A stretch of 4,114 nt of DNA, taken from IMG/VR virus record IMGVR_UViG_2529292871_000019; one strand, given 5' to 3'. The translations under genes were made by a program, and so were the position numbers. This stretch comes from a virus (Duplodnaviria > Heunggongvirae > Uroviricota > Caudoviricetes). The notes under the pieces are model-generated. The model was not told the DNA's origin, ran no database searches, and saw only the letters and a program-made list of their open reading frames with translations. How positions within the stretch are numbered: the first letter of the stretch is position 1; each line of letters begins with the position of its first letter. Positions 342 through 3,334 of the stretch are shown here, piece after piece.

Positions 342-353
342 CAGTCACCTCTT

Positions 354-611
354 TTACCCGAGCACGCCAGTCGCAAAGGCGTGATCAAGAAAACGAAAAA
401 TTAAATCAACCTGGGAACCATGCTTTTCTTCGAACGCCAGCGGATCCGCATGAAGCTCGTTGTGATGCTCCCGACACAGCGGTAGCGTGAAAATATCGTG
501 GGATTTTGTTCCCATTCCGCCCTGACCATGACCAATCAGATGATGAGGATCGTCCGCTGGCTTACCACAACACGCACACGGCTGTGTCTTTACCCAGCGT
601 GTGTATTTCTC
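354..611 (-). pseudogene. HNH nuclease-motif segment, apparent C-terminal part of the YdfU/DUF968-like gene, no start codon of its own
   Basis: Same frame as the 630..1397 ORF; translates as EKYTRWVKTQPCACCGKPADDPHHLIGHGQGGMGTKSHDIFTLPLCREHHNELHADPLAFEEKHG... (CxCC, HH, HD and CxxHHxxxH motifs); stop TAA 354-356 is followed 12 nt later by the rusA start with its own SD. Separated from the upstream ORF by TAA 630-632 and TAA 612-614. Confidence 0.5.
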
Positions 612-629
612 TTAACCCAACGGCAACGT

Positions 630-1397
630 TTAGGCCGCCTCATGAACGATTCGGTGACTCCGGATCAACGGCAATGCTGACCACCGTCTTTTCCTGTGGC
701 GGGTTTGCTGGTGGGCGTGAGGCAGCGGCGCAAGATTTTTTGTGCGCTGCTTCAGTATGCTGGTGGCTGTCTGTTCTCCCGGTACGATGTCACTCTCACG
801 GTATACGGAGCGGATTTTTTCCGCTGGTAATCCCAGCGAACGACGCGCTACTGCCTCAGGTAGTGCATCCACCACCTGATTGCAGGCCGCCCACCAGGAT
901 AATTCAGCCAGCGATAATTCACGCTCCTGTGTGCCATTCATTGCGTGACGAATGACGTCAATCATCCATGCTGACAAGTTTTGGTGAGCAAGTTGCTCAA
1001 GTGATTCGGAGGTCTGGTCACGCAACTGGTTGTCGCAGTGCCAGCACAACACCATTGCGCCGGTACCATAACGGTGAATGACGGTTTCACTGTGGTGATA
1101 ATCGCCGTGTGGCCACTGGCAGGATTTAACATGGCGCAGTAACCAGTCAGACAATGCGCCAGCGCCACCAGCAGCACGAATCACTCGTTCGTCGCTGAAA
1201 AATGGCAGTAATGATTTATCCTCCGCCAGCGGCTGGCGAACGGCAGGAACGACCCCGGACGGCAGATTACGCATGCTTTTCGGTTCCGGCTCCACCAGTA
1301 CCCGGGTATTGTGGAATACCGGCATGGATTCACGGCCCGGCTTAACGATCACCAGCCCGAGTTCCGGTACCAGAACAGGTCGAAGTAATACCCGCAC
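630..1397 (-). CDS. YdfU/DUF968-like prophage protein, N-terminal 255-aa ORF as it stands
   Basis: 255-aa ORF in the track. Start is GTG at 1397 (plus 1395-1397 is cac) with GGAGGT 5 nt upstream, overlapping the stop of the rem-like gene, which suggests translational coupling. Family assignment rests on synteny (downstream of hok and rem, upstream of rusA) and recalled length of about 349 aa for the full reading frame 354..1397. Confidence 0.6.
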   Translation of the reverse strand: MRVLLRPVLVPELGLVIVKPGRESMPVFHNTRVLVEPEPKSMRNLPSGVVPAVRQPLAEDKSLLPFFSDERVIRAAGGAGALSDWLLRHVKSCQWPHGDYHHSETVIHRYGTGAMVLCWHCDNQLRDQTSESLEQLAHQNLSAWMIDVIRHAMNGTQERELSLAELSWWAACNQVVDALPEAVARRSLGLPAEKIRSVYRESDIVPGEQTATSILKQRTKNLAPLPHAHQQTRHRKRRWSALPLIRSHRIVHEAA

Positions 1398-1749: not shown

Positions 1750-1774
1750 AAAAAACAAAACCCGCCGAAGCGGG
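1750..1774 (-). terminator. Rho-independent terminator at the 3' end of the hok mRNA
   Basis: Minus strand reads CCCGC-UUCG-GCGGG followed by UUUUGUUUUUU (plus-strand stem 1761-1765/1770-1774, A-run 1750-1760). Confidence 0.8.
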
Positions 1775-1779
1775 TTAAG

Positions 1780-1795
1780 TGCGGGTGCGTTGAGG
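1780..1795 (-). promoter_or_regulatory. fbi-like 3' element of the hok mRNA, complementary to the mRNA 5' end
   Basis: mRNA 3' segment CCUCAACGCACCCGCA can pair with the 5' segment UGCGGGUGCUUGAGG (2158-2172) over 15 bp with one bulge. Confidence 0.65.
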
Positions 1796-1844
1796 ATGCC
1801 TGACACATCAGCGGTGGCGAGGGATTTCTCCCCCGCCTGGTCTC

Positions 1845-2000
1845 TTACTCCTCAGGTTCGTAAGCTGTGAAGACAGCGACCTCCGTCTGGCCGGTTCGGA
1901 TTCGTACCTCGCAGAGGTCTTTCCTCGTTACCAGTGCCGTCACTATGACGGTTAAACAGATGACGATCAGGGCGATTAACATCGCCTTTTGCTGCTTCAT
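1845..2000 (-). CDS. hokD: Hok/Gef-family type I toxin, 51 aa
   Basis: MKQQKAMLIALIVICLTVIVTALVTRKDLCEVRIRTGQTEVAVFTAYEPEE; ATG at 2000 with AGGAGA 7 nt upstream; single transmembrane segment and the conserved Hok C-terminal region. The hokD assignment is from recalled sequence and the adjacent rem-like gene, not from a search. Confidence 0.9.
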   Translation of the reverse strand: MKQQKAMLIALIVICLTVIVTALVTRKDLCEVRIRTGQTEVAVFTAYEPEE

Positions 2001-2057
2001 AACCTGCTTCTCCTTGCCTTTCGGCGCGTAAGAGGCTAACCTACGTTTGTGAAGCAT
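1845..2057 (-). CDS. mok: mok-like upstream reading frame, in frame with hok (70 codons)
   Basis: ATG at 2057 with GAGG 9 nt upstream, 19 codons before the hok ATG and in the same frame; occupies the position of mok in hok/sok loci. Confidence 0.45.
   Translation of the reverse strand: MLHKRRLASYAPKGKEKQVMKQQKAMLIALIVICLTVIVTALVTRKDLCEVRIRTGQTEVAVFTAYEPEE
2014..2042 (+). promoter_or_regulatory. putative sok promoter on the antisense strand inside the mok-hok overlap
   Basis: TTGCCT (2014-2019), 17-bp spacer, TAACCT (2037-2042); same placement as the sok promoter in the plasmid R1 locus as I recall it. Confidence 0.45.
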
Positions 2058-2122
2058 AGATTGGGCCTCAGATTAATGTTAAGCGTCTTGCAGGACGCGT
2101 AATGTTAACTGGGGCTTTTCTC
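2050..2122 (+). ncRNA. sok: Sok-like antisense RNA (antitoxin), ends approximate
   Basis: Antisense to the hok leader and mok start; long imperfect hairpin TTAATGTTAAGCGTC-TTGCAG-GACGCGTAATGTTAA (2073-2108) followed by GGGGCUUUUCUCU (U-run 2116-2123). Confidence 0.5.
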
Positions 2123-2157
2123 TGTCTGCCTTACGGTGGCATGCCCGAGGCAGACAG

Positions 2158-2172
2158 CCTCAAGCACCCGCA
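2158..2172 (-). promoter_or_regulatory. tac-like 5' end of the hok mRNA
   Basis: UGCGGGUGCUUGAGG at the predicted mRNA 5' end, complementary to the fbi-like element at 1780-1795; followed by a leader hairpin with 9-bp stem (2122-2130/2150-2158). Confidence 0.6.
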
Positions 2173-2175
2173 GCA

Positions 2176-2205
2176 ATTCTACTTAACTCTCGCTTTACCG
2201 CAAAC
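2176..2205 (-). promoter_or_regulatory. putative hok promoter
   Basis: Minus-strand -10 TAGAAT (2176-2181) and -35 TTGCGG (2198-2203, 16-bp spacer); predicted start near 2168-2172 gives an mRNA of about 420 nt ending at the terminator. Confidence 0.5.
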
Positions 2206-2214
2206 CGTTTTGCC

Positions 2215-2236
2215 CGATATGGGAATTCCCATATCG
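2215..2236. repeat. 22-bp perfect palindrome CGATATGGGAATTCCCATATCG
   Basis: Exact reverse-complement symmetry read directly from the sequence; lies between the micro-ORF stop (2245) and the hok -35 element. Confidence 0.9.
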
Positions 2237-2244
2237 TAATGAAT

Positions 2245-2349
2245 TCAGTTCCCTAGTCGATCCATCAAAAACACAACCAGGCAGTAAACGCCCACAACAG
2301 CAACAACAGCCAGCGCACCTTCCATTGCCAGTGATATATCATCCGACAT
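2245..2349 (-). CDS. candidate 34-aa hydrophobic membrane micro-protein
   Basis: ATG at 2349 preceded by AAGGAGGG; MSDDISLAMEGALAVVAVVGVYCLVVFLMDRLGN, one predicted transmembrane helix; stop TGA 2245-2247. Below the 60-aa cutoff of the ORF track. Confidence 0.35.
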   Translation of the reverse strand: MSDDISLAMEGALAVVAVVGVYCLVVFLMDRLGN

Positions 2350-2464
2350 ATTCCCTCCTTTGGTGTTAATCCCGGCGAACGTTTTTACCCTCACCGACAA
2401 ATAACATATACTAAAAAAGCGATAGCCATAGCAACGCCTGTAATTGCAAATGCTTCAGGCCAGT

Positions 2465-3334
2465 TCATTGGCGCACCTCCTGCGGCGGTTCTGGTAGAGG
2501 CATCCAGTGTGATGGTATCCACGACGCACCAGGTATTATCCACCCATCATTAGCGTCAGGATGCCCCGGGATGTAAGTCGCCCATTTCATTCGCCAGTCA
2601 CCTTTCCTGCCAAAATCCCTGGCAACAAGAACGGCTGTTTTGGTATCCGGCATTCGCTCACTACAGCTTATCCAACTATCCGGAGTTACCGGATAGTTGC
2701 CCGATAGTGCATTCTGCTCCAGTGATGCTTTTACAAACCACGCTGCCTGAACTATAACGCCATGAATCCAGCGCAAATCAGCATCGCGATCTTTCTTTTT
2801 CATCTTTTCGCCACTTAAGGCCTTGCTTATGTGGCTGCGTGCCAGGTCTTCATGTAATTCCTTCGCCTCCTCAATGGTGAAACCACCAGGCAGAAGAGCC
2901 GGAGTTACCGGAGAGCTGGTTGACGCTTCCGGGATTTTCCGAAAATTATTGGTTGACGAATCTTTATTTTCCCGAAAGTTTCCGGACTGAAACATGGCTT
3001 CGCGGCAATCGTTCCAGCCTGTAGCGTATGCAGCCGCTTTGCTGCTGCCTTCAACTGGCGCATCCTGCCAATACATTTCTTCCGGCACTATCGGCGCTGG
3101 AGGGGCGGCAAATAGATATCCGCCAAAGTCAGGAAGCTCTCTAATGGCCTGTACAAATTTTTGTTTGCCTACGTCAACCCCTAATGGGTAATGAGCTATA
3201 ATCTTTGCCACCGGCTCTGCTTCCAGCGATGCCAGCGCAATCCGTGCCAGTTCCATTTGTTCACCACGGGTAAGCCCGTTTTCAAGCGGATTTTTAATGA
3301 ACAATTCAATACGTTCTTTGGTAATAGTGGTCAT
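2465..3334 (-). CDS. prophage protein with C-terminal DUF551-type domain, 289 aa
   Basis: C-terminus WISCSERMPDTKTAVLVARDFGRKGDWRMKWATYIPGHPDANDGWIIPGASWIPSHWMPLPEPP matches the DUF551 pattern; ATG at 3334 with AAGGAG upstream that overlaps the stop of the 88-aa gene. Confidence 0.85.
   Translation of the reverse strand: MTTITKERIELFIKNPLENGLTRGEQMELARIALASLEAEPVAKIIAHYPLGVDVGKQKFVQAIRELPDFGGYLFAAPPAPIVPEEMYWQDAPVEGSSKAAAYATGWNDCREAMFQSGNFRENKDSSTNNFRKIPEASTSSPVTPALLPGGFTIEEAKELHEDLARSHISKALSGEKMKKKDRDADLRWIHGVIVQAAWFVKASLEQNALSGNYPVTPDSWISCSERMPDTKTAVLVARDFGRKGDWRMKWATYIPGHPDANDGWIIPGASWIPSHWMPLPEPPQEVRQ
2663..2689. repeat. 11-bp perfect inverted repeat CAACTATCCGG-AGTTA-CCGGATAGTTG inside the DUF551 gene
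   Basis: Arms at 2663-2673 and 2679-2689; encodes NYPVTPDSW on the minus strand. Confidence 0.8.

What the first reader, a model, noticed from the sequence alone, without database searches (positions are those of the whole stretch)
2245..2349. Unannotated 34-aa hydrophobic micro-ORF with a strong RBS next to hok
A near-consensus SD (AAGGAGGG) precedes an ORF encoding a single-helix membrane peptide, in the same orientation as hok and directly upstream of its promoter. Small hydrophobic peptides with strong ribosome sites are typical of type I toxins and phage membrane factors, and this one would be missed by length cutoffs.
Basis: partly seen in the sequence, partly recalled or inferred. Interest (0 to 1): 0.5.

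Follow-up and report, generated by a model that had tools for sequence, protein, structure and literature searches.

The report
Small prophage membrane-protein gene beside hok
The 34-codon reading frame is a real, conserved and translated gene for a one-helix membrane peptide in E. coli lambda-like prophages, but databases and one ribosome-profiling catalogue already list it, and nothing marks it as a toxin like its neighbour hok.

Summary
The ORF exists exactly as described, on the minus strand: ATG at 2349, TGA ending at 2245, and a perfect AAGGAGG(G) Shine-Dalgarno at 2360-2353. It lies about 40 nt upstream of the hok promoter and in the same orientation.

It is not unannotated. RefSeq calls it a hypothetical protein (WP_001278454.1; ECs_5710 in Sakai prophage Sp6). 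Hücker et al. 2017 list it as the translated small gene XECs145 (RIBOseq RPKM 346, RCV 4.35 in LB).

- **Distribution:** about 740 of 5,426 complete E. coli genomes carry it, with a median of 3 matching places per genome. I found it nowhere outside Escherichia.
- **Integrity:** the frame has no indels in 68 haplotypes.
- **Selection:** synonymous changes are in excess (13 of 24 against 7.7 expected, p about 0.02).
- **Structure:** AlphaFold2 predicts one helix.
- **Independence from hok:** it occurs without hok, and hok occurs without it.
- **No toxin hallmarks:** there is no antisense-RNA architecture, the SD is exposed, and it is well translated in growing cells.

Best reading: an accessory small inner-membrane protein of the phage early-right (nin) operon, with unknown function. 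This is an ordinary finding and is already catalogued.

A second conserved hydrophobic micro-ORF sits just upstream (25 aa here, 27 aa in relatives). RefSeq does not annotate it in the loci I checked.

The parts
2245..2349 (-). 34-aa micro-ORF (MSDDISLAMEGALAVVAVVGVYCLVVFLMDRLGN), including the TGA stop. Identical to RefSeq WP_001278454.1 and one residue (V16I) from Sakai ECs_5710 / XECs145.
   Evidence: sequence; annotation; conservation, synonymous excess; hydrophobic helix; RIBOseq in the literature.
2353..2360 (-). Shine-Dalgarno AAGGAGGG, three nt before the ATG.
   Evidence: the only AAGGAGG in the window. It is unpaired in the predicted fold. Related loci keep it as AAGGAGGG or GGGAGGG.
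2361..2390 (-). Most of the short 5' untranslated spacer between the upstream micro-ORF and the SD. A predicted hairpin lies upstream of the SD. Together with the SD and the 3-nt gap before the ATG, this 42-nt spacer is the best conserved segment of the region (5 of 42 columns vary).
2215..2236 (.). Perfect 22-bp palindrome CGATATGGGAATTCCCATATCG, starting 9 nt after the stop. As RNA it forms a 9-bp hairpin with no U tract. It stays with the ORF when hok is absent and with hok when the ORF is absent, so it is a likely module boundary.
   Evidence: -14.5 kcal/mol, z = -4.1.
2391..2468 (-). Neighbouring second hydrophobic micro-ORF. It is 25 aa here (MNWPEAFAITGVAMAIAFLVYVICR) and 27 aa (...CRWG) in most relatives. 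Its ATG overlaps the stop of the DUF551 gene (ATGA). PGAP does not annotate it in the loci inspected.
2465..3334 (-). Upstream DUF551-domain gene (289 aa), same strand. This is context only.
   Evidence: (PF04448, E=7e-19).
2176..2204 (-). Inferred hok promoter: -35 TTTGCG 2204..2199, 17-nt spacer, -10 TAGAAT 2181..2176, start near G2169.
   Evidence: Read from the sequence and positioned against the 5' end of the Rfam match. It was not reported by the consensus scan, so it is an inference.
1845..2169 (-). hok/mok/sok locus: leader and Sok target 2169..1995, mok ORF 2057..1845, hokD CDS 2000..1845. This is a neighbour, not part of the micro-ORF unit.
   Evidence: searches (RF01794, 114.9 bits; HOK_GEF), and annotations.

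Best explanation
The ORF is a genuine protein-coding gene for a 34-residue single-pass inner-membrane peptide. It belongs to a narrow family restricted to Escherichia lambdoid prophages.

It sits in the nin-like segment of the early-right operon. The gene order, all on one strand, is replication genes, DUF551, a 27-aa ORF, this ORF, hok, DUF968, RusA, Q.

Its strong, structurally exposed Shine-Dalgarno lets it be translated efficiently whenever the region is transcribed. The peptide has an acidic 10-residue N-terminal tail, a roughly 19-residue hydrophobic helix, and its only basic residue (R31) at the C-terminus. From this I infer that it inserts N-out/C-in.

Like other bacterial and phage proteins under 50 aa, it most likely acts as a non-essential accessory factor that binds and modulates a larger membrane protein. 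I do not think it is the toxin of a type I toxin-antitoxin pair. It is an independent mosaic module (ORF plus palindrome) that merely lies next to hok.

- Shown: the ORF and SD, conservation, the coding signature, helix propensity, genomic context, and independence from hok.
- Taken from the literature: translation.
- Inferred: membrane insertion, topology, co-transcription with the early operon, and the modulatory function.

My confidence is about 0.85 that it is a real translated gene. It is about 0.5 for the accessory-membrane-factor mechanism as stated, and the overall figure given reflects both.
For: **Gene reality**
- The frame is intact in all 113 related loci that could be analysed (68 haplotypes), with no indel columns in the ORF. 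There are 7 indel columns in the 88 nt upstream and 4 in the 75 nt downstream.
- 13 of 24 substitutions are synonymous, against 7.7 expected by permutation (p=0.019). Among common polymorphisms, 8 of 11 are synonymous (p=0.009). The other two forward frames give 3-4 synonymous changes.
- All common amino-acid replacements are conservative: A/V, V/I and D/E.
- As an internal control, the adjacent 27-aa ORF in the same loci shows no such excess (6 of 22, p=0.49).

**Translation**
- XECs145 in Sakai has RIBOseq RPKM 346.1, RNA RPKM 79.1, RCV 4.35 and coverage 0.99 in LB, and RCV 1.14 in BHI. It was classed as 'real' and predicted to be inner membrane with 1 TM helix (PMC5597208, S2, S3, S8 and S10 Tables).
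- The SD is perfect and predicted to be unpaired.

**Membrane helix:**

**Operon context:**

**Independence from hok**
- PPompW phages keep the palindrome and hok but have paa/adfO in place of the ORF.
- Loci L069, L108 and L112 keep the ORF and palindrome but have no hok.
- hok-locus DNA is in 4,763 of 5,426 genomes, whereas the ORF region is in about 741.

**Narrow family**
- Only 7 near-identical hits turned up among 1.84 billion representative proteins.
- Two degenerate back-translated patterns found no match in 185,579 species-representative genomes.
- All plasmid hits are E. coli.
Against: - No function has been tested anywhere, and I found no mention of it in the main text of any paper.
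- The selection signal rests on only about 25 mutational events in a shallow family that is at least 90% identical.
- The ribosome-profiling evidence comes from a high-throughput catalogue. That catalogue used an arbitrary upstream start. The ORF is also multi-copy in Sakai, so read assignment is uncertain.
- No promoter for the ORF was identified, so what drives the transcription seen in uninduced lysogens is unknown.
- The family's absence from deposited phage genomes and its presence mainly in prophages, some visibly decayed, are compatible with a dispensable or drifting gene.
- Topology and membrane insertion are inference only.
Confidence: 0.6

Rival explanations
1. It is the toxin of a new type I toxin-antitoxin system: a membrane-depolarising peptide kept silent by an antisense RNA.
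For: - It is a small hydrophobic single-helix peptide with a strong SD, next to a bona fide type I toxin in a prophage.
- Two weak sigma-70-like matches lie on the opposite strand, at 2325-2352 and 2384-2412.
- Many hydrophobic micro-peptides are toxic when overproduced (general knowledge).
Against: - No toxin family matches in Pfam, NCBIfam, PHROGs or PADLOC.
- No Rfam RNA lies over the ORF.
- No terminator-like site was found on the opposite strand, and the antisense promoter-like hits are only 9-of-12 consensus matches. One of them is weakened by the common A8V allele.
- The ORF is packed operon-style, 41 nt after one ORF and about 40 nt before the hok promoter. That leaves no room for its own promoter with a long 5' UTR.
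- The SD is predicted to be open.
- It was translated above average in exponentially growing cells (RCV 4.35), the opposite of a silenced toxin.
- Its net charge is -3, with no basic C-terminal tail.
Confidence: 0.1
2. It is a translated but functionless young ORF. On this view a strong SD-like sequence and an open frame arose by chance in a prophage spacer. Its conservation would then reflect recent spread of the prophages rather than selection on the peptide.
For: - The family is confined to Escherichia and is at least 90% identical throughout.
- No homologue of known function exists.
- It resides mostly in prophages, at least some of them decayed. The DUF968 gene in this window carries in-frame stops.
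- Rare disrupted or extended variants exist (P0047, P0050 and P0051; a DRM* truncation).
Against: - Synonymous changes are in excess specifically in this frame (p about 0.01-0.02), and replacements are conservative.
- There are no indels in 68 haplotypes, while the flanks have some.
- The SD and start codon are kept (ATG or GTG) in all copies.
- The ORF is kept in three different genomic contexts.
- The neighbouring ORF, under the same demographic history, shows no synonymous excess.
Confidence: 0.2
3. It is a regulatory leader ORF. Ribosomes terminating at its stop, 8 nt before the palindromic hairpin, would control formation of that hairpin. That in turn would control read-through, processing or stability of transcripts entering hok and the late-gene regulator region. 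The peptide itself would be irrelevant.
For: - The stop codon lies 8 nt from a stable hairpin (-14.5 kcal/mol, z=-4.1), so a terminating ribosome would cover its left arm.
- The ORF and palindrome always travel together.
- The 5' spacer and SD are the best conserved part of the region.
Against: - The hairpin has no U tract and was not called as a terminator.
- It is imperfect in about a quarter of the loci.
- A leader mechanism does not explain the synonymous excess or the conservative, hydrophobicity-preserving replacements along the whole peptide.
- The palindrome also occurs without the ORF, in PPompW phages.
Confidence: 0.06

Closest known systems
XECs145 (Hücker et al. 2017, PLoS One, PMC5597208) = ECs_5710 / YP_009502606.1 of E. 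coli O157:H7 Sakai prophage Sp6; RefSeq WP_001278454.1 and WP_001278450.1 'hypothetical protein'
   Same: This is the same gene. The window peptide is identical to WP_001278454.1 and differs from the Sakai allele by V16I. The context is the same: DUF551, ORF, hok, DUF968, RusA, Q.
   Different: The paper lists a 54-codon version from an arbitrary upstream non-ATG start, so it predicted no SD. RefSeq and this analysis favour the 34-codon ATG preceded by AAGGAGGG. Neither source assigns a function.
Hok/Gef family type I toxins (Pfam PF01848), e.g. the adjacent hokD with its mok/sok elements
   Same: Both are small single-helix hydrophobic peptides carried by a prophage. They share strand and neighbourhood.
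   Different: - No sequence match to HOK_GEF.
- No mok-like overlapping frame, no Sok-like antisense RNA and no folded leader.
- It is acidic rather than basic.
- It is translated in growing cells.
- It occurs independently of hok.
E. coli small inner-membrane proteins under 50 aa, found by ribosome-binding-site models and ribosome profiling (Hemm et al. 2008; examples from my own knowledge: AcrZ, MgtS/YneM, YohP, CydX)
   Same: Similar size, a single TM helix, a strong SD and frequent absence from older annotation. The expected mode of action is binding to a larger membrane protein.
   Different: No sequence similarity. It is prophage-borne, multi-copy and restricted to a subset of E. coli. 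Its partner and function are unknown.
Other enterobacterial type I toxins (Ibs, Ldr, ShoB, TisB, DinQ, ZorO), recalled from knowledge
   Same: Peptides of 18-50 aa with one hydrophobic helix.
   Different: Those sit in free-standing intergenic loci with a dedicated promoter, a long 5' UTR and a cognate antisense sRNA, and they are poorly translated in normal growth. None of these features was found here.

Membership tests
Hok/Gef toxin family (PF01848) | Significant match to the HOK_GEF profile | tested here: not met
   the 34-aa peptide matches no Pfam family at E<=1, while the neighbouring hokD scores E=1.2e-23. NCBIfam and PHROGs also give nothing.
Type I toxin-antitoxin system | Small hydrophobic membrane-active peptide ORF | tested here: met
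   34 aa; best 19-aa window has mean Kyte-Doolittle 2.70; AlphaFold2 predicts a single helix over residues 3-33, pLDDT 90.6.
Type I toxin-antitoxin system | Cognate antisense RNA with its own promoter and terminator, overlapping or adjacent to the toxin mRNA | tested here: not met
   No Rfam family lies over 2200-2470. No terminator-like site lies on the + strand in 1700-2700, and there are only two 9-of-12 promoter-like matches. There is only a 41-nt gap to the upstream ORF. This is computational evidence only; a novel RNA cannot be excluded without TSS mapping.
Type I toxin-antitoxin system | Toxin translation repressed in normal growth (sequestered SD or structured leader) | tested here: not met
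   The SD is unpaired in both the MFE and centroid folds. Published RIBOseq gives RCV 4.35 in LB and 1.14 in BHI, above the paper's group means.
Type I toxin-antitoxin system | Growth arrest or membrane damage on expression | not testable with these tools
   Needs an inducible-expression experiment.
Protein-coding gene under purifying selection | Frame conserved; synonymous changes in excess in the proposed frame only | tested here: met
   There are no indel columns in 68 haplotypes. 13 of 24 substitutions are synonymous against 7.7 expected (p=0.019). Among common variants 8 of 11 are synonymous (p=0.009). The other forward frames give 3-4. The sample is shallow.
Translated small ORF | Ribosome footprints over the ORF | not testable with these tools
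   From the literature only: XECs145 has RIBOseq RPKM 346.1 and coverage 0.99 in LB (PMC5597208 S2 Table). Caveats are that the gene is multi-copy and no start-site mapping was done.
Small single-pass inner-membrane proteins | Membrane localisation and defined topology | not testable with these tools
   The published predictor says inner membrane with 1 TMH (S8 Table). The N-out/C-in topology is my inference from the charge distribution (D3, D4 and E10 against R31).
Lambdoid early-right (nin-region) operon gene | Lies between replication genes and the Q antiterminator, co-oriented with them | tested here: met
   In some searches the order is DUF1627/DUF977/DUF551, ORF, hokD, DUF968, RusA, antiterminator Q, all on one strand. 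Sakai Sp6 is annotated as a lambda-like phage. Co-transcription itself was not tested.

The most novel reading that the evidence does not exclude
The two tandem micro-ORFs form a previously unrecognised two-peptide membrane module of lambdoid early operons, with a specific job. The pair consists of the 27-aa peptide coupled to the DUF551/Ea22-like gene and this 34-aa peptide. Possible jobs are neutralising or timing Hok-type membrane damage during induction, excluding superinfecting phage, or acting as a new kind of membrane toxin. The evidence does not exclude this. Both ORFs are kept together in 111 of 113 loci, and the 34-aa peptide shows a coding signature and is translated. No partner or phenotype is known.
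Probability: 0.12. Interest if true: 0.55.

Novelty: already known. Interest (0 to 1): 0.25.

Why it matters
If its function were found, it would add one more example of how prophages in pathogenic E. coli (EHEC/STEC carry several copies) use tiny membrane peptides, a class that is still largely uncharacterised. As it stands, the gene is already in RefSeq and in a published translatome catalogue. This check therefore adds four things:
- The correct start codon with its SD.
- A modest signature of purifying selection.
- Evidence that the ORF is independent of hok.
- Evidence against the type I toxin reading.

The better lead for annotation is the neighbouring 27-aa ORF, which RefSeq does not call in the loci I checked.

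Tried and rejected
- **tblastn against phages.** The peptide gave no match, probably because of low-complexity masking. A DNA search then showed that the ORF really is absent from the 50,697 phage records; only flanking pieces matched.
- **Species-representative genomes.** Two degenerate back-translated patterns, one N-terminal and one C-terminal, found nothing in the 185,579 genomes. No divergent homologues were therefore available for a deeper selection test.
- **Exhaustive phmmer.** A search of 1.84 billion representative proteins gave only near-identical variants.
- **Family libraries.** Pfam, PHROGs, NCBIfam and PADLOC gave nothing meaningful. The PADLOC Cmr5 hit at E=0.04 is noise.
- **Rfam.** Nothing lies over the ORF.
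- **Literature.** Searches by sequence, accession or locus tag found no main-text mention. The only record is in the supplements of PMC5597208.
- **Is the ORF part of the hok/sok module?** I considered this and rejected it because each occurs without the other.
- **Is the 51-aa TTG-start or 54-aa version the real product?** I considered this and rejected it because neither has an SD, while the ATG has a perfect one.
- **Is the palindrome an intrinsic terminator?** I considered this and rejected it because it has no U tract and the scan did not call it.

Full report
**1. What is there**

The feature lies on the minus strand. An ATG at 2349..2347 opens a 34-codon frame that ends with TGA at 2247..2245. 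It encodes MSDDISLAMEGALAVVAVVGVYCLVVFLMDRLGN.

AAGGAGGG occupies 2360..2353, three nt before the ATG. AAGGAGG occurs only once in the 4,114-bp window, against 0.47 expected on both strands.

The peptide has an acidic N-terminal tail (D3, D4, E10) and a 19-residue hydrophobic core with mean Kyte-Doolittle 2.70. Its only basic residue, R31, is near the C-terminus. AlphaFold2 gives one continuous helix over residues 3-33 with mean pLDDT 90.6.

Downstream on the same strand:
- A perfect 22-bp palindrome at 2236..2215.
- A hok promoter that I read from the sequence: TTTGCG at 2204..2199, a 17-nt spacer, and TAGAAT at 2181..2176.
- The hok leader and Sok target, which Rfam matches at 2169..1995 with 114.9 bits.
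- hokD itself at 2000..1845 (HOK_GEF, E=1e-23).

**2. It is not unannotated**

In every RefSeq E. coli locus I opened, PGAP annotates this exact 105-nt ORF as 'hypothetical protein'. The window's peptide is identical to WP_001278454.1.

In O157:H7 Sakai it is ECs_5710 / YP_009502606.1, inside the feature 'prophage Sp6; lambda-like phage'. The exact sequence and its commonest variants sit in the protein collection on about 1,000 contigs each, with NCBI and UniRef names.

**3. Distribution and context**

DNA matching the ORF region is in 741 of 5,426 complete E. coli genomes, with a median of 3 matching places per genome. These are largely O157, O55, O26, O111, O145 and O104 strains.

The neighbourhood is always a lambdoid early-right segment on one strand. 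The order is DUF1627/DUF977/DUF551, ORF, hokD, a small hypothetical gene, DUF968, RusA, antiterminator Q.

The ORF is absent from the 50,697 deposited phage genomes. All plasmid hits are E. coli.

The family has no detectable distant relatives:
- An exhaustive phmmer search of 1.84 billion representative proteins returned 7 hits, all variants at least 76% identical.
- Two degenerate patterns found nothing in 185,579 species-representative genomes.
- Pfam, PHROGs, NCBIfam and PADLOC give no family.

**4. Is it a gene?**

A degenerate-pattern scan of IMG/VR returned at least 120 prophage loci. With the RefSeq loci and the window itself, 113 sequences had enough flanking DNA to analyse, giving 68 haplotypes.
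- The ORF has no indel columns. The 88 nt upstream have 7 and the 75 nt downstream have 4.
- The start is ATG or GTG and the stop is TGA or TAA. One variant ends two codons early.
- Counting each variant state once, 13 of 24 substitutions are synonymous in this frame, against 7.7 expected when the same changes are placed at random (p=0.019).
- Among polymorphisms seen in at least 3 haplotypes, 8 of 11 are synonymous (p=0.009). The other two forward frames give only 3-4 synonymous changes.
- Common replacements are A8V, V16I and D30E, all conservative.
- As an internal control, the neighbouring 27-aa ORF in the same loci shows no synonymous excess (6 of 22, p=0.49).

The signal is modest because the family is shallow, but it points to selection on the peptide.

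**5. Translation, from the literature**

Hücker et al. 2017 (PLoS One, PMC5597208) list the Sakai copy as novel translated gene XECs145.

| Condition | RNA RPKM | RIBOseq RPKM | RCV | Coverage |
|---|---|---|---|---|
| LB | 79.1 | 346.1 | 4.35 | 0.99 |
| BHI control | 121.3 | 150.1 | 1.14 | 0.84 |
| BHI cold and osmotic stress | 73.3 | 1.1 | 0.01 | 0.37 |

- Mean RCV in LB for the paper's gene groups is 1.55-2.04.
- They classed it as 'real' and noted a hypothetical-protein homologue in another EHEC strain. They found 2,033 intact homologues in E. coli and none outside Escherichia and Shigella.
- They predicted an inner-membrane protein with one TM helix.
- They used a 54-codon version starting at a non-ATG codon and therefore predicted no SD. 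The ATG with AAGGAGGG, as in RefSeq, is the credible start.

Three caveats apply. This is a high-throughput catalogue. The gene is multi-copy. No start-site mapping was done.

Neither is met, so the ORF stands.

**6. Relation to hok**

In 106 of 113 loci my motif search found a Hok ORF starting 243-263 nt after the ORF's stop (243-247 in all but two). Four more have a hok leader whose Hok variant escaped the motif. The two genes are nevertheless separable.
- PPompW phages have the last two codons of the ORF, the palindrome and hok, but paa/adfO upstream instead of the ORF.
- Loci L069, L108 and L112 carry the ...VLLMDRLGS variant, which occurs on 653 contigs. They keep the DUF551 gene, the 27-aa ORF, the 34-aa ORF and the palindrome, but diverge immediately afterwards into convergent genes with no hok.
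- hok-locus DNA is in 4,763 genomes, whereas the ORF region is in about 741.

The ORF with its palindrome is therefore an independent mosaic module. The palindrome region looks like a module boundary.

**7. Type I toxin?**

I found none of the hallmarks beyond 'small and hydrophobic'.
- No toxin family matches.
- No Rfam RNA lies over the ORF.
- No terminator-like site lies on the opposite strand, and there are only two 9-of-12 antisense promoter-like matches. One of these is weakened by the common A8V allele.
- The ORF is packed 41 nt after the preceding ORF and about 40 nt before the hok promoter. That is operon-style packing, not a free-standing locus with a long leader.
- The SD is predicted to be single-stranded between two small hairpins.
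- Above-average ribosome occupancy in exponentially growing cells is the opposite of a silenced toxin.
- The peptide has a net charge of -3.

Toxicity on overexpression cannot be judged here.

**8. Most likely mechanism**

This is a genuine accessory small inner-membrane protein of the prophage early-right operon. It is translated efficiently whenever the region is transcribed.

I infer that it inserts N-out/C-in from its acidic tail and its single C-terminal arginine. It probably acts by binding a larger membrane protein, as characterised proteins under 50 aa do. Membrane insertion, topology, co-transcription and the modulatory role are all inferences.

The promoter responsible for expression in uninduced cultures is unknown. 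None was found by the scan, and the paper's prediction is a low-scoring site about 230 nt upstream, inside the DUF551 gene.

Rivals and my confidence in each:
- A translated but functionless young ORF (0.2).
- A type I toxin (0.1).
- A leader ORF acting on the adjacent hairpin (0.06).

**9. Verdict**

Its function remains unknown. The toxin interpretation is not supported.

The by-product worth noting is the neighbouring micro-ORF, which is 25 aa here and 27 aa in relatives.
- Its start is coupled by an ATGA overlap to the conserved C-terminus of DUF551/Ea22-like genes.
- It is kept in 111 of 113 loci, including a clade with an in-frame 6-nt deletion.
- A copy 26% diverged at the DNA level, with only conservative replacements, sits in a different operon of Stx2a phage WGPS2.
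- PGAP does not annotate it in the loci inspected. Only a handful of GenBank records call it.

Noticed in passing
window 2391-2468 (-); L131 1203-1286; L132-L136: There is a second hydrophobic micro-ORF directly upstream of the flagged one. It is MNWPEAFAITGVAMAIAFLVYVICR here (25 aa, cut short by TGG->TGA) and 27 aa (...CRWG) in most relatives. Its ATG overlaps the stop of the DUF551 gene (ATGA), and its SD (GGAGGTG) lies within the conserved ...PPQEV codons. It is kept in 111 of 113 loci, including a clade with an in-frame 6-nt deletion. A 26%-diverged copy (MTWPDAFAIVGVAMSIALIVFAICRWG) follows Ea22-like genes near xis/int in Stx2a phage WGPS2. There is no synonymous excess within the close family (6 of 22, p=0.49), and a common A17D variant exists, so its coding status is likely but not settled. 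PGAP does not annotate it in L001-L007, and only a few GenBank records call it.
   Followed up: partly
window 2215-2236: A perfect 22-bp palindrome, CGATATGGGAATTCCCATATCG, contains an EcoRI site. As RNA it forms a hairpin of -14.5 kcal/mol with no U tract. Three different mosaic junctions fall within about 15 nt of it: ORF|palindrome|hok, paa|palindrome|hok in PPompW phages, and ORF|palindrome|other genes in L069. It may therefore be a module-boundary or recombination sequence, or a protein-binding site. It is imperfect in about a quarter of the loci.
   Followed up: partly
window 345-1397 (-): The DUF968 (HNH-like) gene of this window is broken. There are in-frame TAA stops at 632..630 and six codons later, inside a roughly 35-residue patch unlike the intact 351-aa homologue of L001. 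The frame then resumes through the C-terminal HNH-like part. This suggests the window comes from a decaying prophage copy. PGAP marks a similar 'internal stop' in L002.
   Followed up: partly
L069 2877-4732 (also L108, L112): The hok-less context of the ORF variant ...VLLMDRLGS has two convergent genes right after the palindrome, of 408 aa and 214 aa. From memory they look like a PAPS-reductase-like and ParB-like (IbrA/IbrB-type) pair. I did not test this against any profile library.
   Followed up: no
window 1755-1836 (-): There is a sub-threshold Rfam match to isrK, an Hfq-binding sRNA of Salmonella prophage islands (27.2 bits against a gathering score of 50, E=0.005). It covers the 3' end of the hok transcript and its terminator, AACCCGCTTCGGCGGGTT followed by a T run at 1776..1759.
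   Followed up: no
window 2102-2239 (+): A 45-aa plus-strand ORF lies antisense to the hok leader and promoter. It resembles XECs166 of Hücker et al. 2017 (shared ...MPEADSLKHPQQ.YLTL...). Because this is the region where I would expect the Sok antisense RNA, that 'novel gene' may reflect RNA signal rather than a protein.
   Followed up: no
window 2325-2352 and 2384-2412 (+): Two weak sigma-70-like matches (9 of 12) lie antisense to the micro-ORF start and its 5' spacer. The region has 3 such sites against 0.7 expected from shuffles. No matching terminator was found, and the -35 of the first is weakened by the common A8V allele. I did not pursue this experimentally.
   Followed up: partly
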